Below are positions 44,312 through 60,719 of a DNA stretch of 64,000 nt, in pieces (the first letter of the stretch is position 1; every line of letters starts with the position of its first letter). The notes below the pieces were generated by a model. The model was not told the DNA's origin. It saw only the letters and a program-made list of their open reading frames with translations, and searched no databases. Source of the stretch: Candidatus Saccharibacteria bacterium UBA2952 (lineage in GTDB: Bacteria; Patescibacteriota; Saccharimonadia; Saccharimonadales; Saccharimonadaceae); assembly GCA_002348605.1 (NCBI GenBank), contig DEBQ01000006.1, positions 78,715 to 142,714 on the forward strand. The letters run 5' to 3'. A program made the translations under genes and the position numbers.

Positions 44312-44569
44312 ATGAGCGAGAGTAAATCCAACAAAGAAGAATTCAGGGTTAGCGGCGAAGAGCTACTTGCCAAGGTTAAAGAAATTATTCGCGAAGGCAA
44401 CGTTCGGCGACTTATTATCAAAGACAAAGACGGCAAGACCATGGTAGAAATCCCGTTGACCGTCGGAGTGGTTGGCATCGTACTCGCACCGGTATTGGCT
44501 GCCGTTGGTGCAATCGCCGCCTTGGTCACGGAATGTACGATCTTAGTTGAGCGTACTGACGCTAAATAA
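44312..44569 (+). CDS. DUF4342-like small protein
   Basis: 85 aa; EEFRVSGEELLAKVKEIIREGNVRRLIIKDKDGKTMVEIPLTVGVVG. ATG is 6 nt after TATAAT. Confidence 0.65.
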   Translation: MSESKSNKEEFRVSGEELLAKVKEIIREGNVRRLIIKDKDGKTMVEIPLTVGVVGIVLAPVLAAVGAIAALVTECTILVERTDAK

Positions 44570-45274
44570 CTTCACCCATTCTTCAAGCGTTAGCTGCGAC
44601 GGAATTTTTTCAGGCGACAGACCTGCTTTTTCGCGTGGGGTTTTAGCAAAGAACTTCTGCTCGGCAAAGCAGCGTTCAATGAATGTCCGGTACTTCGGCA
44701 TCGCTTCAATCAGCAACAGCGGTTCTTCCCGCAACTTTAGTTCCAACAGCACCGTGTCGACACCCGGCGGCGGTGTAAAGTCAGTCCGTTTTAAGGGCTT
44801 ACGGATACGCGCTGCAAATAGTGGCCCGATCTGTGCGCCGAGCTGCGACGTAAAATGGTCACTGCCCGGTTCTAATTTTCGGGCGAACTGGCGCTGGGCA
44901 ATCAGGTAGATCGCTTTCGGTGGCCGCGGACTTTCGGTAAACTTACGAACAATCGCCGCACTTAGATTGAATGGGATGTTCGAGAATATCTTGTAGGGAA
45001 CTTCTGGCGGGTCAAGCGTTAGAATGTCTTGTTCAAGAATATTTACATTCAATACATTGCCCAAATTAGTTCGGAGCTTTTTGACCGCGCCGGGCTCAAT
45101 TTCTACCGCGATTACTTTTTTGCAGCGGTTTGCCAGTACGCTCGCAATCACGCCGCTGCCGGCGCCAAGATCGTATACCAGATCGTTCTTGCGGATATTA
45201 GAATGACCAATCAGTTCCGCAACAATGTGCGGACTACGTAAAAAGTGCTGGGCGTATTCATGCTCACGGGCCAT
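44543..45274 (-). CDS. rRNA adenine N6-dimethyltransferase family, Erm-like by size and C-terminus
   Basis: 243 aa; AQHFL (QNFL-like), DLGAGSGV SAM loop, NIPFNLS, FTPPPGVDT. The short C-terminal domain fits Erm better than KsgA, but this is not decisive. Confidence 0.7.
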   Translation of the reverse strand: MAREHEYAQHFLRSPHIVAELIGHSNIRKNDLVYDLGAGSGVIASVLANRCKKVIAVEIEPGAVKKLRTNLGNVLNVNILEQDILTLDPPEVPYKIFSNIPFNLSAAIVRKFTESPRPPKAIYLIAQRQFARKLEPGSDHFTSQLGAQIGPLFAARIRKPLKRTDFTPPPGVDTVLLELKLREEPLLLIEAMPKYRTFIERCFAEQKFFAKTPREKAGLSPEKIPSQLTLEEWVKLFSVSTLN

Positions 45275-45309
45275 ATGGTGTCATTATACCTTGTTTTAAG
45301 AGTGATGTA

Positions 45310-45338
45310 TTGACTTTTTATACATTTTGTAGTATAAT
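45310..45338 (+). promoter_or_regulatory. Perfect consensus promoter TTGACT-N17-TATAAT
   Basis: TTGACT 45310-45315 and TATAAT 45333-45338 in an AT-rich stretch immediately upstream of the GC-rich gene. Confidence 0.75.
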
Positions 45339-45381
45339 TATATATTGTAGGTAATTGTCCTTCTCACTCTTAGGAGTTTCG

Positions 45382-45765
45382 TTGCACAAGCTGCAAGAGC
45401 TTCGCGAAGACGCCGGTTTCACCGTCGCCGAGCTTGCTGAGTACACCGGCCTGTCCACCTCGACCATTTATGGCATCGAGAATGGCACGTCCGAGTTCAA
45501 AACGCATGTCGGTGTCGCGCAGATCCTGGCCGAAACGTTCGACTGCGACGTGAACGACATCTTCACATCCGAGGAGCTGTCGCACCGCGGTCGGCCGCCG
45601 CTCACCGGCAAGCCGATTGGTCACGTCACCAGCATGCTCGAAGTCAGCGTCACGAAGAACGGTCAGACTGAGACCTTCCGGCTCTTCCACGAGCTTGAAG
45701 GTAGCGCCTGCGAGCGCTGTCACATCGTCATGCCGCTCACAGGCAAGTGCCCGTTCTGTGACTAA
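45382..45765 (+). CDS. XRE-family HTH regulator with C-terminal CxxC..CxxC zinc-ribbon-like tail
   Basis: TVAELAEYTGLSTSTIYGIENG HTH; C-terminal ACERCH..GKCPFC. TTG start 5 nt after GGAG; strongly G/C-ending codons. Confidence 0.7.
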   Translation: MHKLQELREDAGFTVAELAEYTGLSTSTIYGIENGTSEFKTHVGVAQILAETFDCDVNDIFTSEELSHRGRPPLTGKPIGHVTSMLEVSVTKNGQTETFRLFHELEGSACERCHIVMPLTGKCPFCD

Positions 45766-45795
45766 CCTACTACCCCCGAAAGGAGTTTTCAACCT

Positions 45796-45818
45796 GAGAA
45801 CCCCTTCGGGGGTTTCTC
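45796..45818. terminator. Bidirectional stem-loop terminator between convergent genes
   Basis: GAGAACCCC-TTCG-GGGGTTTCTC followed by ATTT. Confidence 0.75.
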
Positions 45819-45820
45819 AT

Positions 45821-46603
45821 TTAAGCTTCTCGCCGAAGCGCCTCTTGCCCTGCGGTGGCTGCCTCGCTGACGAGCGTAGAATATACGGTCTGACTTAGTT
45901 CCTTTGGGTTGTTGGCAAAATGCTGCATAAGCGGCGAACGCTCATCGGCAAACTGTGCCATCGTTGGGCGTACGCCCAACGCATCAGTCAGATCAAGCGC
46001 TGCCTCGTACTCGGTATGGGCTGCTTGCATGGCAGCTTCTTGCATCTCTACTCTATCCATCCTCATGTTAGCTACGTTATGTTTAATGACGGCCAATGTA
46101 ACCGCGCTGGTAGCGAGTGCCCGGCCTAATTGAATGTCTTTTCGGGCGATCATATTCGGACTTCGGTCTTTAAATACCATTTCCTCGACGACACTTGCCA
46201 GTTCCGCGGTTCGCGACAAGTCAATCTTGGCTTTTTCAATTAGATTTTCTGGGCTTAGGCGTTCGTCCGTTTCAGGGTCTATCATAATAGGCAGTTTTGC
46301 ACGCCTGAACATTACTTCGTCACCAAAATGCTGCGCATAGGTATGGTATGCGCTGCCCATCCCCGTGACGGCAAGTAGTGATGCGGCTTCTTCAATGTCG
46401 CTGTCACTTCCAGCGTCTGCGATATGCCTGAATGTTCGTTCGGCAGTCGCCGTGCCCACCTTTTGTAACCATGGAATCACAACCCCTTGCCTACCTTTAA
46501 ACATGGCTAGGCGTTCGTTGTCCCGGGTCGGTGCTGGAACATAATCCAGACCCTCGGCTGTTTGTACGGTGTTAAATACATATTCTCTTCGCTCTCTACT
46601 CAT
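45821..46603 (-). CDS. Hypothetical protein
   Basis: 260 aa, helical-looking; TATAGT 7 nt upstream of the ATG; no motif recognised. Confidence 0.6.
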   Translation of the reverse strand: MSRERREYVFNTVQTAEGLDYVPAPTRDNERLAMFKGRQGVVIPWLQKVGTATAERTFRHIADAGSDSDIEEAASLLAVTGMGSAYHTYAQHFGDEVMFRRAKLPIMIDPETDERLSPENLIEKAKIDLSRTAELASVVEEMVFKDRSPNMIARKDIQLGRALATSAVTLAVIKHNVANMRMDRVEMQEAAMQAAHTEYEAALDLTDALGVRPTMAQFADERSPLMQHFANNPKELSQTVYSTLVSEAATAGQEALRREA

Positions 46604-46687
46604 ATAAACTACTATACGCTGCTTATTGCATGATGTATAGAAATATTACATCGTATATAAGCATAAGCTTCCTGCTATACTATGGCT

Positions 46688-47071
46688 ATGGATAACGCCG
46701 AACTACTTAACCAGTTGAACCAGCAACAGCAGAATGGCAGCGGTGACCAAACTACCCTGCTGCAAAGCCTGCTTGGCGGAACGGATGGTGGCAGTTTGAT
46801 TCCCGAATCGTTGGTACAAACACTGACCATCAGTCTTATCGCGCTGAACGTGGTCGGTGTACTGTTTCTTATCGCGTATATATTAAGCGGTATTCGCAAA
46901 TGGAAGGTGCAATCGGCCGTGCTTCACATGCGAAAAGACCTAGAAGAAATCAAAGCCCACATGTCGCCTCCCGCTCCTGCCTCACAGCCCGAACCGGTGG
47001 CTACGCAAACCGAAACGCCCGACAAACCGGCTCCAGGCGAACAGTCGAGCAATACCTCTACTACGGTGTGA
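46688..47071 (+). CDS. Hypothetical single-pass membrane protein with Gln-rich N-terminus and Pro-rich C-terminus
   Basis: Second ATG (46688) is 6 nt after TGcTATACT; the track ORF starts at 46682. Confidence 0.55.
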   Translation: MDNAELLNQLNQQQQNGSGDQTTLLQSLLGGTDGGSLIPESLVQTLTISLIALNVVGVLFLIAYILSGIRKWKVQSAVLHMRKDLEEIKAHMSPPAPASQPEPVATQTETPDKPAPGEQSSNTSTTV

Positions 47072-52892: not shown

Positions 52893-54443
52893 ATGTTTGC
52901 TCAGGTAAAACGGCACTGGTTCGGGCTTTATTCGTTTGCCCAAAGCTTTGTTGCCAGGTCGTTTAAAAATGAGCTACAGCCGATTCGCTTATTCCAGAAA
53001 CTTTTACCCACACTTGTCGTAATTACACTGACCGAAATAATATTCAGAAACACTGGCAGCGGGTACAGCGTAATTATTATTGTGCTGTTAAGTCTCATGC
53101 TTTATTCGGCATACCAGTTTGGGGCACTCGTAGGCATGATTAGTGCGCTACTTACCGTTTTATATAACTTTTACCTGATTGCTGCCACGCTAAATATCCC
53201 GCTGCTGTCGGAAAGGACACTCGAAAGCGGCATCGTAATCGCGCTAGTGTTCCCTATGCTGGCACTGCTAATCGGCGTGCTGAAAGAGCGCAACAACATA
53301 CTGTTTGAAGGCGAGCAAGCCGCCCGTATGCGCGCTGAAGATATTGCCGAACGGTTGCGATTCATGTCGGAATCCATGCCGCAAAAAATCTTTACCATGC
53401 TGCCGAACGGTAAGAATGACTACATGAACCCTCAGTGGAAAGAATATACCGGCAATGTAGCAAGGCCGGACTTTGCGAAAATAGTACACCCACAGGACTA
53501 CAAAGAAAACATGGCGGCCTGGAAGCACTCGCTTGAAACCGGCGAACCGTTTCAGTTTGAACACCGCCTGCGGCGAACCGACGGTCAATACGTGTGGCAT
53601 CTGACCCGTGCAACAGCCATGCACGACAAAAAAGGCAAAATAACATTGTGGATTGGGTCGAGCACCGACATTGAAAGCGTACGAAAGGCCAAGCGGCTTG
53701 AAGCCAACACTGCTCGCCTTATTAAGCAGCGCACGCAACTAATGGAGCTTAACAAAGCCAAAGACGAGTTTATTTCGCTGGCGTCGCACCAACTACGTAC
53801 GCCAGCCACCAGCGTGAAGCAGTACATAAATATGATTCTAGACGGCTACGGCGGCAAAATATCGCCGAAGGTCAAAAAGCTACTTGCTACAGCTAATGCC
53901 AGTAATGAACGACAACTTTCGGTCATTAATGACCTACTGCAGGTAGCACAGGTAGACGCCGGCAAAGTGGTACTACGCAAAGAACCGGTGAATATTGACG
54001 ACCTACTGGCGAGTATTATTCGTGACGACACGTCGACGTTCAAAGACCGCGGGCAAAAAGCGAAGTACGTGCACCGGCGCCGCAAAGTCACCGTGAACGC
54101 CGACCCGACCAAACTGCGCATGGCAATTGAAAACGTCATAGACAACGCCAGCAAATACTCCCCACCCAACACTACCGTAACCGTGCGCCTGACTGCCGTA
54201 AGCGGCAAAGTGCGCATAAGCATAAAAGACGAAGGCGTAGGCATTCCAAAGTCGGACCTAAAAAAGATATTCGACAAATTCACACGCATAGACAATCCTC
54301 TGTCGAACGTGGTTGGTGGTAACGGATTGGGGTTGTACTGGGTACAGAAAGTGATTGAACTGCATGGTGGGGACATTTCGGCCACTTCGGTGCTTGGAAA
54401 AGGTTCGACGTTTACTATAACCCTGCCGTCAGTAGGTAAATAA
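52893..54443 (+). CDS. Membrane PAS-domain sensor histidine kinase
   Basis: 4 N-terminal TM segments, a PAS-like segment, H-box SLASHQLRTPAT and a G-box GGNGLGL. Confidence 0.85.
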   Translation: MFAQVKRHWFGLYSFAQSFVARSFKNELQPIRLFQKLLPTLVVITLTEIIFRNTGSGYSVIIIVLLSLMLYSAYQFGALVGMISALLTVLYNFYLIAATLNIPLLSERTLESGIVIALVFPMLALLIGVLKERNNILFEGEQAARMRAEDIAERLRFMSESMPQKIFTMLPNGKNDYMNPQWKEYTGNVARPDFAKIVHPQDYKENMAAWKHSLETGEPFQFEHRLRRTDGQYVWHLTRATAMHDKKGKITLWIGSSTDIESVRKAKRLEANTARLIKQRTQLMELNKAKDEFISLASHQLRTPATSVKQYINMILDGYGGKISPKVKKLLATANASNERQLSVINDLLQVAQVDAGKVVLRKEPVNIDDLLASIIRDDTSTFKDRGQKAKYVHRRRKVTVNADPTKLRMAIENVIDNASKYSPPNTTVTVRLTAVSGKVRISIKDEGVGIPKSDLKKIFDKFTRIDNPLSNVVGGNGLGLYWVQKVIELHGGDISATSVLGKGSTFTITLPSVGK

Positions 54444-54445
54444 CC

Positions 54446-55114
54446 ATGCTAGACCACCATATTCAAAAGTCGATCGTATACGACCTGGCGTTCGCCGAAA
54501 GCCTGCGCTTTAGCGACCTAAAGCCGGATGACATGGAAAACAAGGCCTTCACCTACCACCTGAAGAAAGTCATGAAAGCCGGCCTAGTGGAAAAGTTGGA
54601 CGACGGCCGCTACACGCTAACCATGAAAGGCCGCCGGGTTGGGAAAGGTGCGTTAAAAAAAGAGAGCCGGTTATTAGACAGGGCGTATTCAATCCTTCTG
54701 CTCGCAGTCAGAAACATTGAAGACGATACCTGGCTACTGTATAAACGGCAGACCCAACCCCTGCTTGGACTGGTCGGGTTTATGCAAGCCCAGCCGGTCG
54801 CCGAAACCGACGCATGCAGTACGGCCGAGAAGACGTGTTTCGAGGAGACTGGAATCAAGGCCGAATTCGCAGTTCAGGGCCATGGGTATTTTAGGGTGTA
54901 CCGTAAAGGCGAGCTTGAAAGCTTCATTCATTTCACGCTCCTTATTGGGCAAGATCCTCAGGGCGAACTGCTTGAAACAGCGGAATCGGCCGGTTACTTT
55001 TGGCAACGAACGCCGAACTTCGCGCACCCTGATATGCTACCGAACATGCAAACACTTCACAAAATGTGCTTAGATCTACCTGGTTCTTTTGTTGAAGCGA
55101 CATTTGAGTTGTAG
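54446..55114 (+). CDS. Winged-HTH protein fused to a Nudix-like domain with a degenerate Nudix box
   Basis: N-terminal wHTH (FTYHLKKVMKAGLVEKLDDGRYTLT). The C-terminal segment carries KTCFEETGI in place of REx2EExGU. Starts 2 nt after the kinase stop. Confidence 0.5.
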   Translation: MLDHHIQKSIVYDLAFAESLRFSDLKPDDMENKAFTYHLKKVMKAGLVEKLDDGRYTLTMKGRRVGKGALKKESRLLDRAYSILLLAVRNIEDDTWLLYKRQTQPLLGLVGFMQAQPVAETDACSTAEKTCFEETGIKAEFAVQGHGYFRVYRKGELESFIHFTLLIGQDPQGELLETAESAGYFWQRTPNFAHPDMLPNMQTLHKMCLDLPGSFVEATFEL

Positions 55115-60083: not shown

Positions 60084-60112
60084 TTGACAACTTAGCATAA
60101 ATAGAATATAAT
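60084..60112 (+). promoter_or_regulatory. Perfect consensus promoter TTGACA-N17-TATAAT
   Basis: TTGACA 60084-60089 and TATAAT 60107-60112, AT-rich, immediately upstream of the GC-rich two-gene cassette. Confidence 0.75.
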
Positions 60113-60197
60113 AATATATAGGAAGGCGTGAAAGCGCCTTTTGTTCTTCCCTATGAGCGGCTAAATGGCCGTCCCCGGACTTCGAGAGGAGAAAGCT

Positions 60198-60398
60198 ATG
60201 CCAACGGACGGCTGCGGAACGCCTGCGAACCCGTTCGCCTGCGCCAACCTGCACCTGCCCTACTACGGGAGCGGCAAGGATGGCTGGCACGTGAGTCTCG
60301 GGTGGTTGACCGACCGCCCGATTGTGACCCTGCTGGTCCTAGCGATCGTGCTGACGATCGCGAAGTCGGTGACCCAGTACAAGATTGAAGGGAGATGA
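60198..60398 (+). CDS. Small single-pass membrane protein, high-GC codon usage
   Basis: 66 aa from ATG 60198 with a GAGGAG SD; third codon positions are almost all G/C in this frame; TM IVTLLVLAIVLTIA. Confidence 0.6.
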   Translation: MPTDGCGTPANPFACANLHLPYYGSGKDGWHVSLGWLTDRPIVTLLVLAIVLTIAKSVTQYKIEGR

Positions 60399-60404
60399 CG
60401 GCAC

Positions 60405-60662
60405 ATGCTGTCGATGGAAACCTGCAGAATGCCCGATGGAACTCGGGTGGTGTACGACCAGTCGTGTGCCAGCATGGACTTGTCCGAGTACCACTGGTAT
60501 ACCGAGCCTTGGCACTTGGTCACGCAGGCCTTGGCCGACACCTGGCACGCTGTGGTATTCCTGCTGAGCGACCCGTTCGCCTGGCTCATCACGTTCATGG
60601 CCACCGCCATCCTGTTCGGCTACATCAAGATCAGGAACGCCATGGACAGCACACCGAGGTGA
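60405..60662 (+). CDS. Small membrane protein, high-GC codon usage
   Basis: 85 aa with a GAAGGGAG SD; high GC3 in this frame only; hydrophobic C-terminal half. Confidence 0.6.
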   Translation: MLSMETCRMPDGTRVVYDQSCASMDLSEYHWYTEPWHLVTQALADTWHAVVFLLSDPFAWLITFMATAILFGYIKIRNAMDSTPR

Positions 60663-60685
60663 CTCGAACAAGCCTGTGACTCAAG

Positions 60686-60719
60686 GGAAGAGACCCCGCC
60701 TAACCAGCGGGGTCTTTCC
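60686..60719. terminator. Bidirectional stem-loop terminator
   Basis: AGACCCCGC-CTAACCA-GCGGGGTCT flanked by GGAAG/CTTTCC and followed by ATTT. Confidence 0.75.

What the first reader, a model, noticed from the sequence alone, without database searches (positions are those of the whole stretch)
45310..45818. GC-rich single-gene cassette (XRE-HTH plus zinc ribbon) with a perfect AT-rich consensus promoter
- The coding sequence at 45382-45765 is about 60%+ GC. A 60-nt sample counted 62%.
- Its third codon positions are almost uniformly G/C. This contrasts with the ~50% backbone and the 35-45% neighbours.
- It is framed by a textbook TTGACT-N17-TATAAT promoter and a GC-clamp terminator.
- The codon style looks actinobacterial.
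- If this genome is a Saccharibacteria-type epibiont of Actinomycetota, the cassette could be a host-derived or phage-derived regulator. That is inference.
- A second cassette with the same design sits at 60084-60719.
Basis: partly seen in the sequence, partly recalled or inferred. Interest (0 to 1): 0.6.

Follow-up and report, generated by a model that had tools for sequence, protein, structure and literature searches.

The report
GC-rich XRE regulator cassette, Saccharibacteria hotspot
A small DNA-binding regulator gene with its own strong promoter and terminator is written in unusually G/C-rich codons and sits in a swap-prone gap between two conserved genes of a tiny Saccharibacteria genome. 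Its relatives are found only in other Saccharibacteria, not in the high-GC hosts or their phages.

Summary
Window 45382-45765 (+) encodes a 127-aa protein at 59.6% GC and 78.9% GC3, against 54 +/- 7% for the genome's ORFs (99th percentile). It has a TTGACT-N17-TATAAT promoter and a strong hairpin terminator.

The protein has three parts: an XRE helix-turn-helix, an invariant S-H-x-G-R-P-x-x-T-G motif that looks like an AT-hook, and a C-terminal Cys4 zinc ribbon.

The proposed origin from an actinobacterial host or actinophage is not supported.
- All identifiable relatives are in Saccharimonadia or unnamed metagenomes.
- None was found in 50,697 phage records, in IMG/VR, or in plasmids beyond generic HTH hits.

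The gene is accessory. It occupies a variable gap between an Erm-like rRNA methyltransferase and a small membrane protein. In the same genus that gap is empty, or holds this gene, a Mu Gam-like gene, both, or other cargo.

Compared with the sister species, the gene is under purifying selection (dN/dS 0.08). Its promoter and terminator are 93-97% conserved.

High GC is a trait of the whole family across hosts of 42-56% GC, and about 25 other genes in this genome share the same design. The cause of the GC-richness and the regulator's targets remain unknown.

The scan has already noted this cassette class in at least 47 other genomes.

The parts
44543..45274 (-). Left anchor of the hotspot: an Erm-like / RsmA-like rRNA adenine dimethyltransferase. 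It is a core gene, present in 20 of 20 genus genomes.
   Evidence: Pfam RrnaAD E 9e-39. NCBIfam Erm23S_rRNA_broad scores 174 bits, below the 212-bit cutoff. Found in 20/20 genus genomes.
45283..45288 (-). TATAAT (minus strand) 8 nt upstream of the methyltransferase ATG, a leaderless-type -10 box. It marks the left edge of the insertion gap.
   Evidence: Read directly from the sequence. The block is conserved in G010 and L116.
45310..45338 (+). Cassette promoter, TTGACT-N17-TATAAT.
   Evidence: 11 of 12 consensus positions. The promoter and leader are 92.5% identical to G010, against about 60-65% identity at third codon positions. The promoter is homologous in L116, L119 and G019.
45321..45350 (+). 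Two direct TTGTAG(T/G)(A/T)AAT repeats 18 bp apart. One overlaps the -10 box and one lies at about +1 to +10. They are candidate operator half-sites for autoregulation (inference).
   Evidence: the repeat finder family D2. Both copies are conserved in G000, G010, L116 and L119. No second such paired site exists in the G000 or G010 genome.
45369..45373 (+). Shine-Dalgarno sequence AGGAG, 8 nt before the TTG start.
   Evidence: Read from the sequence. Homologues begin at the same residue (M-H-K/P-L/V).
45382..45765 (+). CDS of 127 aa. XRE HTH (residues 1-62, nt 45382-45567); GRP motif L-S-H-R-G-R-P-P-L-T-G-K-P-I (residues 66-79, nt 45577-45618); beta-hairpin (residues 81-106); Cys4 zinc ribbon C110/C113/C123/C126 (nt 45709-45762).
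   Evidence: Pfam HTH_3. Invariant G70 R71 P72, C110, C123 and C126 in 17-33 family members. AF2 model with mean pLDDT 77. dN/dS 0.083 against G010. GC3 78.9%.
45766..45822 (+). 3' UTR and intrinsic terminator. ACCCCCGAAAGG...CCCCUUCGGGGGU hairpin followed by a U-rich tail. CCUAC just after the stop codon can pair with GUAGG in the leader.
   Evidence: -26.3 kcal/mol, z -4.7. 96.6% identical to G010. The same hairpin type follows family members in other species. The leader-trailer helix is predicted in 4 of 5 orthologues, with one G-U change and no compensatory proof.
45821..46603 (-). Second cargo of the same gap: a 260-aa protein with no family match, ordinary GC3 (0.49), convergent with the XRE gene.
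   Evidence: No Pfam, PHROG, NCBIfam or PADLOC hit. Present next to the XRE gene in G010 (91%) and L119 (37%). Present alone in G012 (30%). Absent from most genus members.
46682..47071 (+). Right anchor of the hotspot: a 129-aa membrane protein, conserved at this position in the genus.
   Evidence: tblastn across genus loci.

Best explanation
WHAT IT IS
Window 45310-45822 is an autonomous single-gene transcription unit: a strong sigma-70-type promoter, a short leader with a Shine-Dalgarno sequence, a 127-aa CDS and an intrinsic terminator. It encodes a DNA-binding regulator of a family seen so far essentially only in Saccharimonadia.

PROTEIN ARCHITECTURE
- An N-terminal five-helix XRE/Cro-C1 HTH.
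- A flexible linker carrying an invariant GRP core that resembles an AT-hook.
- A beta-hairpin.
- A C-terminal Cys4 zinc ribbon.

GENOMIC SETTING
- The unit is accessory cargo in a recombination hotspot between two conserved genes, an Erm-like methyltransferase and a small membrane protein.
- In different species of the genus the gap is empty or holds different stacks of independent cassettes: this XRE gene, a Mu Gam-like end-binding protein, a 260-aa orphan, or a 167-aa membrane protein.
- Inferred: whole promoter-to-terminator units are exchanged among Saccharimonadia by natural transformation and homologous recombination in the conserved flanks. The genome has ComEC and DprA, and no integrase or repeat boundary is visible.

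COMPOSITION
- The high GC3 is a lasting attribute of this and other Saccharimonadia-specific accessory families.
- It is not a footprint of a recent actinobacterial or actinophage donor.

LIKELY FUNCTION (inference)
- A dimeric repressor whose HTH reads a major-groove site and whose GRP arm reads the adjacent AT-rich minor groove.
- It probably acts on its own promoter, which carries conserved TTGTAG repeats over -10/+1.
- It possibly also acts on neighbouring cassettes such as the recurrently linked Gam-like gene.
For: SHOWN: ANATOMY
- Promoter, Shine-Dalgarno, CDS and terminator.
- HTH_3 domain.
- Conserved GRP and Cys4.
- AF2 model: HTH pLDDT about 90, disordered linker, hairpin 81-106.

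SHOWN: DISTRIBUTION
- Only 8 clusters in 5.8e9 proteins by word search.
- 268 hits at E <= 1e-10 in the exhaustive HMM search.
- Full-length members in about 13 of 301 Saccharimonadia genomes.
- 12 of 61 relatives have a match.
- Named members are Saccharibacteria: UBA2951, RAAC3_TM7, HCZ28855.

SHOWN: HOTSPOT
- Empty gap of about 100 bp in G015 and G008.
- XRE + 260-aa gene in G000 and G010.
- XRE + TM167 in G019.
- Gam-like gene alone in G013, G016, G003 and G011.
- XRE + Gam in L116.
- XRE + Gam + TM167 in L118.

SHOWN: SELECTION AND INHERITANCE
- dN/dS 0.083; promoter 92.5% and terminator 96.6% identical to G010, against about 60-65% at third positions.
- Fourfold-site identity of 0.60 is at the 78th percentile of 414 orthologue pairs, so the gene was co-inherited since the G000/G010 split.

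SHOWN: GC-RICHNESS AS A FAMILY TRAIT
- GC3 is 0.53-0.81 in 20 members, while flanks are 0.42-0.56 GC.
- In GC-rich Saccharimonadia such as L072 the gene is compositionally native yet still has an AT-rich consensus promoter.
- A control cassette (HATPase_c_3, GC3 0.91) behaves the same way: Saccharimonadia-only names, and a GC-rich outlier at 40% identity in distant genomes.

SHOWN: OTHER
- The ribosomal-protein operon and EF-Tu have GC3 0.55-0.56, so this is not native optimal-codon bias.
- ComEC and DprA are present.
- Literature: most gene transfers detected in Patescibacteria are between Patescibacteria (PMC12455944).
Against: - No experiment or expression data.
- The operator assignment rests on conserved repeats only. 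They overlap the -10 box, which is conserved anyway.
- The leader-trailer pairing has no compensatory changes, and the covariation term is positive.
- Transformation-mediated exchange is inferred from the pattern, not observed.
- Actinomycetota genomes could not be searched directly with the family profile. The genome-contig scan used one narrow peptide pattern.
- The cause of the GC-richness is unresolved. The G000/G010/L116 comparison cannot separate maintained GC3 from slow decay of a roughly 100% GC3 ancestor.
- One family member is labelled Verrucomicrobiae.
Confidence: 0.62

Rival explanations
1. Recent horizontal acquisition from a high-GC Actinomycetota host or one of its phages. On this view the GC3-rich codons are the donor's, and the gene is a host- or phage-derived repressor.
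For: - GC3 of 79% (up to 96% for the linked Gam-like gene in L118) resembles Actinomycetota.
- XRE repressors and Mu Gam are typical phage early-region functions (PHROG hits).
- The literature shows that phages of the hosts interact with Saccharibacteria (PMC10746230 and PMC13578794, listed).
- The S/W substitution pattern is compatible with decay from a roughly 100% GC3 ancestor.
Against: - No homologue in 50,697 phage records for the XRE gene or the Gam-like gene.
- None in IMG/VR by motif scan.
- None in plasmids beyond a generic HTH.
- No Actinomycetota name among the family members examined.
- The promoter, leader and terminator are AT-rich, Saccharibacteria-style, and conserved together with the gene.
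- Synonymous divergence from G010 is genome-typical.
- The family is GC-rich at every depth of divergence.
Confidence: 0.08
2. Orphan immunity repressor. The XRE gene, with the Gam-like gene, is a domesticated remnant of the early region of a still-unknown virus or mobile element of Saccharibacteria that has GC-richer coding sequence. It is kept because it silences incoming relatives of that element (superinfection immunity). GC-richness is renewed by repeated re-seeding from that reservoir.
For: - XRE and Mu Gam-like genes are adjacent in three independent contexts: L116, L118 and L071.
- The design resembles a phage moron.
- Distribution is patchy.
- The family has its own compositional set-point, GC3 about 0.7-0.8, irrespective of host GC.
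- A strong constitutive promoter is what a stand-alone repressor needs.
Against: - No viral contig carries the family.
- No prophage genes lie nearby, and the flanks are core genes.
- The copies in G000 and G010 have been inherited vertically for a long time.
Confidence: 0.2
3. The GC-rich codons are maintained by selection acting on the transcript or DNA itself. Possible advantages are a strongly folded, nuclease-resistant mRNA, or avoidance of AT-targeting nucleases or silencers. On this view they are not inherited from any donor.
For: - The whole transcript folds far better than shuffles (-188.6 against -159.7 kcal/mol, z = -5.3).
- GC3 is equal (0.79) in G000 and G010 despite about 40% turnover of fourfold sites.
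- The trait persists across deep family divergence.
- It is not native optimal-codon usage.
Against: - For the CDS alone the excess structure is modest: z -2.5 against dinucleotide shuffles and -1.7 against synonymous-codon shuffles.
- Much of the whole-transcript z comes from the terminator.
- Some family members are barely GC-enriched (L045 0.53, L048 0.57, L052 0.58).
- Stationarity fits no better than decay.
Confidence: 0.25
4. Antitoxin of a type II toxin-antitoxin pair (HigA, HipB or MqsA-like XRE antitoxin) that has lost its toxin or acts in trans.
For: - Weak HTH-level similarity to HipB and HigA antitoxins.
- MqsA also combines a zinc-binding domain with an XRE HTH (own knowledge).
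Against: - The gene is monocistronic, with its own terminator.
- No co-transcribed partner exists in any of about 25 loci examined. The neighbours are convergent or separately promoted.
- Domain order is the reverse of MqsA.
- Scores are far below the family cut-offs.
Confidence: 0.04

Closest known systems
XRE / Cro-C1 family HTH regulators (Pfam HTH_3; e.g. CylR2, SinR, DdrO, 434 repressor, restriction-modification C-proteins)
   Same: Five-helix HTH at the N-terminus, with sequence and fold matches to these proteins. Small size. Likely dimeric repressor with an autoregulated promoter (inference).
   Different: - Residues 63-127 (GRP motif, beta-hairpin, Cys4 ribbon) match no Pfam, NCBIfam or PHROG model and no PDB chain.
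- Known dimerisation or sensor domains (SinR helical hook, DdrO C-terminal domain, cI peptidase domain) are absent.
Phage 'morons' (Juhala et al. 2000, Hendrix et al.; own knowledge; also named by earlier scan notes)
   Same: Autonomous promoter-gene-terminator unit of deviant base composition, inserted between two genes of a conserved backbone.
   Different: - The backbone is a cellular chromosome, not a prophage.
- No phage genes flank it.
- There are about 25 such units across the genome.
Minimal mobile elements (MMEs) of Neisseria (Saunders & Snyder 2002; own knowledge; wording also in earlier scan notes)
   Same: A fixed chromosomal site between conserved genes holds alternative gene cassettes, or nothing, in different strains. 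There is no transposase or integrase. Exchange presumably occurs by natural transformation plus flanking homology. ComEC and DprA are present here.
   Different: - Here the cassettes carry their own consensus promoter and terminator.
- They are systematically GC-rich.
- Exchange spans species of a genus or class.
- Transformation-mediated movement is not demonstrated.
MqsA antitoxin (zinc-binding domain + XRE HTH)
   Same: Combination of a Cys4 zinc module and an XRE HTH in a small regulator.
   Different: - Domain order is reversed: MqsA has the zinc domain N-terminal and the HTH C-terminal.
- There is no toxin partner.
- No sequence similarity beyond the HTH.
Minor-groove 'GRP' arms next to an HTH (Hin recombinase G-R-P-R arm; eukaryotic AT-hooks; Lsr2 RGR motif; own knowledge)
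   Same: Invariant G-R-P in a flexible basic segment directly adjoining an HTH, facing a very AT-rich target region.
   Different: - The arm lies C-terminal to the HTH.
- The flanking consensus (S-H-x-GRP-x-x-T-G) differs from the canonical R-G-R-P AT-hook in most members.
- DNA binding is untested.

Membership tests
XRE / HTH_3 transcriptional regulators | Sequence match to the Cro/C1-type HTH profile above the curated threshold | tested here: met
   PF01381 scores 39.4 bits against a cutoff of 23, residues 4-59.
XRE / HTH_3 transcriptional regulators | Five-helix bundle fold | tested here: met
   AF2 helices at 3-11, 15-22, 26-34, 43-52 and 57-60, pLDDT about 90. Foldseek matches CylR2, SinR and DdrO at rmsd 1.5-2.3 A over about 60 residues.
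XRE / HTH_3 transcriptional regulators | Sequence-specific DNA binding and repression | not testable with these tools
   Needs EMSA, footprinting or a reporter assay.
Zinc-ribbon (Cys4) domain | Two CxxC knuckles with conserved spacing | tested here: met
   C110-x2-C113-x9-C123-x2-C126. C110, C123 and C126 are invariant and C113 is at least 90% conserved in 17-33 sequences.
Zinc-ribbon (Cys4) domain | Ribbon fold and metal binding | tested here: inconclusive
   The AF2 model has pLDDT of only 60-65 for residues 107-127. Metal content is not testable here.
Phage moron | Own promoter and own terminator flanking one gene, with deviant composition | tested here: met
Phage moron | Located within a phage or prophage genome | tested here: not met
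   Flanks are core genes (metK, DUF4342, Erm-like methyltransferase, membrane protein) that are syntenic across the genus. So the unit works like a moron but is not one.
Minimal mobile element (Neisseria-type) | Same inter-genic site holds alternative cargo, or none, in related genomes, with conserved flanking genes | tested here: met
   Empty in G015 and G008. At least five different contents elsewhere.
Minimal mobile element (Neisseria-type) | No dedicated recombinase or repeat boundaries | tested here: met
   No integrase or transposase ORF in the gap. Only short repeats, not conserved in G010, around the promoter.
Minimal mobile element (Neisseria-type) | Movement by natural transformation and homologous recombination | not testable with these tools
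   ComEC (150 bits) and DprA (246 bits) are present. Actual transfer has not been observed.
Type II antitoxin (HigA / HipB / MqsA-like) | Co-transcribed toxin partner | tested here: not met
   Monocistronic with its own terminator. No conserved operon partner in about 25 loci.
Actinomycetota- or actinophage-derived gene | Closest homologues in Actinomycetota or their phages | tested here: not met
   Caveat: no direct profile search of Actinomycetota genomes was possible.

The most novel reading that the evidence does not exclude
Saccharimonadia may keep a private, exchangeable pool of strongly promoted single-gene cassettes. Their G/C-rich coding style would be actively maintained, or continually renewed from an undiscovered GC-rich element, rather than inherited from hosts. 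Within that pool, the HTH-GRP-zinc-ribbon proteins would be the dedicated regulators. They would bind the shared GTAGG-type leader motif of their own cassette and of neighbouring ones (for example the Mu Gam-like end-binding protein), and so control what happens to incoming DNA in these naturally competent epibionts.
Probability: 0.15. Interest if true: 0.75.

Novelty: new variant of a known kind. Interest (0 to 1): 0.5.

Why it matters
Saccharibacteria have tiny genomes and live on Actinomycetota, so a GC-rich gene is easily read as host DNA. This case shows that reading can be wrong.

- The regulator belongs to a Saccharibacteria-restricted family. It travels as a complete promoter-to-terminator unit and lands in a defined gap between core genes.
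- It adds three things to a cassette class the scan keeps finding: a defined protein architecture (XRE HTH + GRP arm + Cys4 ribbon, no solved or curated counterpart for the C-terminal half); a mapped hotspot with at least six occupancy states; and a recurrent link to a Mu Gam-like protein.
- If the GC-rich style is actively maintained, it points to an unrecognised constraint on accessory-gene expression in these epibionts.
- If it is renewed from a reservoir, a mobile element of Saccharibacteria remains to be found.
- The cassette's consensus promoter and terminator are also ready-made expression parts for the emerging genetics of these organisms.

Tried and rejected
1. DECAY OR MAINTENANCE OF GC3
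- The S/W states at synonymous sites (SS 75, discordant 32, WW 4) first looked like neutral decay from a roughly 100% GC3 ancestor when I used rates from the three flanking genes.
- With genome-wide rates, the stationary and decay models differ by only 1-2 lnL units.
- The three-taxon parsimony count (24 S>W against 7 W>S) is what saturation at 80% S gives anyway.
- Result: inconclusive.

2. SHARED 'CGTACC' LEADER MOTIF ACROSS ALL GC-RICH CASSETTES
- It is not enriched in G000.
- It belongs to the homologous Gam cassette leaders only.

3. INVERTED REPEAT TAAGAGTGA / TCACTCTTA BRACKETING THE PROMOTER
- It is not conserved or compensated in G010, so I treated it as chance.

4. XRE REGULON SEARCH
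- No other promoter in G000 or G010 carries the paired TTGTAG motif.

5. RFAM
- No RNA family in 45200-45900.

6. PADLOC AND NCBIFAM
- Only sub-threshold HTH hits.

7. PROFILE A2 ON GENOME_CONTIGS
- The A1 scan used a single narrow pattern.

8. TOOLS NOT AVAILABLE
- No handle to Actinomycetota genomes was available for the genome search (one search gave none).

9. OPTIMAL-CODON HYPOTHESIS
- Rejected: the ribosomal-protein operon and EF-Tu have ordinary GC3.
Full report
OBSERVATION

- A TTG start at 45382, with AGGAG 8 nt upstream, opens a 127-codon frame that ends at 45765.
- Its GC is 59.6% and its GC3 is 78.9%. The genome has 8 contigs, 819,902 bp and 50.7% GC. Its 852 long ORFs have GC3 of 54.3 +/- 7.1%, which places this gene at the 98.9th percentile.
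- TTGACT-N17-TATAAT lies at 45310-45338, matching 11 of 12 consensus positions.
- A hairpin at 45772-45812 followed by a U-rich tail folds at -26.3 kcal/mol, z = -4.7.
- Two details need correcting. Third positions are 79% G/C, not nearly all. The immediate neighbours are about 50% GC, not 35-45%.

THE PROTEIN

- Pfam finds only an XRE/Cro-C1 HTH, on residues 4-59.
- Alignments of 8, 17 and 33 relatives show three conserved features beyond it:
  - an invariant G70-R71-P72 inside S-H-x-G-R-P-x-x-T-G;
  - a variable beta-rich spacer;
  - C110-x2-C113-x9-C123-x2-C126.
- An AlphaFold model (mean pLDDT 77) gives a confident five-helix HTH, a disordered GRP linker, a hairpin at 81-106 and a low-confidence Cys4 tail.
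- PDB fold and sequence searches match the HTH only: CylR2, SinR, DdrO, HipB, C-proteins and 434 repressor.
- NCBIfam, PHROGs and PADLOC add nothing beyond the HTH.
- A GRP arm beside an HTH recalls the minor-groove arm of Hin and AT-hooks (own knowledge). I take this as a lead, not a test.

WHO HAS IT

- A word-indexed search of 5.8 billion proteins found 8 clusters.
- An exhaustive profile search of 1.84 billion representatives found 268 at E <= 1e-10. Many are full-length proteins of 105-140 aa with the same three-part layout.
- Among 61 relatives, 12 genomes have a match. Among 301 Saccharimonadia genomes, about 13 have a full-length member.
- A motif scan of one genome for each of 185,579 species returned only three loci. 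Two are labelled Saccharibacteria/Saccharimonadia, and one is an unnamed MAG.
- Of 20 family representatives checked for names, the named ones are Saccharibacteria (RAAC3_TM7, HCZ28855), plus one MAG labelled Verrucomicrobiae. The rest are unnamed metagenome proteins.
- tblastn against 50,697 phage records found nothing. An IMG/VR scan found nothing. Plasmids gave only generic HTH hits from Firmicutes.
- I could not run the profile directly on Actinomycetota genomes.

THE HOTSPOT

- In the sister species G010 (record titled Candidatus Saccharibacteria bacterium UBA2951), the gene is 87% identical. It sits in the same order: metK, DUF4342, Erm-like methyltransferase, XRE, 260-aa gene, membrane protein.
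- The methyltransferase is present in all 20 genus genomes.
- Content of the gap between the methyltransferase and the 129-aa membrane protein differs by genome:

| Gap content | Genomes or contigs |
|---|---|
| Empty, about 100 bp | G015, G008 |
| XRE + 260-aa gene | G000, G010, contig L119 |
| XRE (51% identical) + 167-aa membrane protein | G019 |
| 191-204-aa gene with GC3 0.70-0.90 | G013, G016, G003, G011 |
| Normal-GC membrane protein only | G007 |
| 260-aa-like gene only | G012 |

- The 191-204-aa gene is Mu Gam-like. Its Pfam scores are 29-31 bits against a cutoff of 28.3, it matches PHROG 491, and a relative in L072 scores 72 bits.
- Two metagenome contigs show XRE and Gam stacked in the same gap, each with its own promoter and terminator: L116 (XRE 83% identical) and L118 (55%). 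A third contig, L071, has Gam-like followed by XRE at a different site.
- The site is therefore an array of independent cassettes, and XRE and Gam are recurrent companions.
- No integrase or conserved boundary repeat is present.
- ComEC and DprA are encoded. Exchange by transformation and flanking homology is plausible but inferred.

SELECTION AND INHERITANCE

| G000 against G010 | Value |
|---|---|
| XRE dN/dS | 0.083 |
| XRE dS | 0.79 |
| Flanking genes dS | 0.98-1.25 |
| Promoter/leader identity (107 bp) | 92.5% |
| Terminator region identity (58 bp) | 96.6% |
| Third-codon-position identity | about 60-65% |

- After fetching the whole G010 genome, fourfold-site identity of the XRE pair is 0.60. 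That is the 78th percentile of 414 orthologue pairs, whose median is 0.52.
- The cassette has therefore been inherited together with the chromosome since these species split. Both the protein and its control regions are under constraint.

THE GC-RICHNESS

- It is not native optimal-codon usage: EF-Tu and the ribosomal-protein operon have GC3 of 0.55-0.56.
- It is a family trait. Twenty members have GC3 of 0.53-0.81 (most 0.65-0.81), while their flanks are 42-56% GC.
- Nearly all members keep an AT-rich TTGAC-type promoter and a CCCC..GGGG hairpin.
- Genus genomes themselves span methyltransferase GC3 of 0.38-0.69.
- In a 56% GC contig (L072) the family member is compositionally native, yet it still has the AT-rich promoter. 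GC-richer Saccharimonadia are therefore one possible source.
- The pattern is genome-wide.
  - About 26 genes have GC3 of at least 0.73. They are scattered singly between core genes, and several are absent from or replaced in G010.
  - Nine of the genome's 27 near-consensus promoters serve them (p = 1.3e-8).
- As a control, the most GC-rich long cassette (HATPase_c_3, GC3 0.91) also has only Saccharimonadia-named relatives. It is also a GC-rich outlier in distant genomes at 40% identity.
- I could not decide whether GC3 is maintained or slowly decaying.
- The whole transcript folds unusually well (z = -5.3). The CDS alone is only modestly structured: z -2.5 against dinucleotide shuffles and -1.7 against synonymous shuffles.

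REGULATION (INFERENCE)

- Two TTGTAG(T/G)(A/T)AAT repeats 18 bp apart overlap the -10 box and the start region. They are conserved in the four closest orthologues.
- No other paired site exists in G000 or G010. Autoregulation is therefore the simplest reading.
- GTAGG-type motifs also occur, mostly inverted, in Gam cassette leaders. This is weak evidence for cross-regulation.
- GUAGGU in the leader can pair with ACCUAC just after the stop codon in 4 of 5 orthologues. There is one G-U change and no compensatory pair.

COMPARISON WITH KNOWN SYSTEMS

- The protein is a member of the XRE family, with an undescribed C-terminal half.
- The unit works like a phage moron but is not in a phage.
- The site behaves like a Neisseria minimal mobile element.
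- It is not a toxin-antitoxin pair.
- PMC12455944 reports that most detected gene transfers in Patescibacteria are between Patescibacteria, which fits these results.

EARLIER SCAN NOTES

- Earlier notes describe the same cassette class: 58 notes in at least 47 genomes, including the second cassette of this window.
- I treated them as leads. My own tests agree with their main points.

VERDICT

- The actinobacterial or actinophage origin is not supported.
- This is a real, constrained, Saccharimonadia-specific regulator cassette in a mapped hotspot.
- Its targets, and the cause of its GC-richness, are still open.

Noticed in passing
window 44543-45274 (-): The left anchor gene is closer to the Erm 23S rRNA methyltransferase profile (174 bits, cutoff 212) than to KsgA/RsmA (121 bits, cutoff 171). 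It is conserved in all 20 genus genomes alongside a second, 29%-identical RrnaAD paralogue (G000 C2:10589-11245). This may be an intrinsic Erm-like ribosome methylase in Saccharibacteria.
   Followed up: partly
G000 C1:48000-108000 (outside the window): At least ten single GC3-rich genes (GC3 0.73-0.91) are interspersed one by one between core genes such as topA, der and ATP synthase. Several have no counterpart in G010 (77529-78146, 82146-82649, 84776-85348). One (54130-54621) is replaced by a 49%-identical gene at the same site.
   Followed up: partly
G000 C4:257335-259808 (outside the window); L120, L121: A two-gene GC-rich cassette (a 235-aa protein plus a HATPase_c_3 / MORC-like ATPase, GC3 0.80 and 0.91) is conserved as a pair. 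It is also a GC-rich outlier in distant Saccharimonadia (GC3 0.84/0.79 against a background of 0.45 in L121).
   Followed up: partly
L118:554-1141; L116:661-1275; L017, L020, L025, L026: The Mu Gam-like gene at this hotspot reaches GC3 0.96 in a roughly 44% GC genome (L118). It has its own conserved TAGACTTTTT...TGCTATAAT promoter and a CGTACCTAC leader. G000 itself has no Gam-like gene.
   Followed up: partly
G000 contig ends: C4:280709-281074, C5:130-1353, C3:1185-3910, C3:46808-47542, C7:182083-182367: Several of the most GC-rich genes lie at contig ends. This suggests that assembly breaks occur at such cassettes, through repeats, strain variation or coverage changes.
   Followed up: no
window 45275-45290 and 46640-46681; L013, L014: In genomes with the empty gap, the two anchor genes are separated by about 45 bp. 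That stretch holds two back-to-back -10 boxes 6-8 nt from each ATG (leaderless-type starts). Cassettes are inserted exactly between these two minimal promoters.
   Followed up: partly
L071:8426-10073; L117:2484-3839: In two unrelated contigs a family member lies convergent to a DUF2130 gene, and in L071 also next to a GIY-YIG gene. This may be a second recurrent insertion site or a functional neighbourhood.
   Followed up: no
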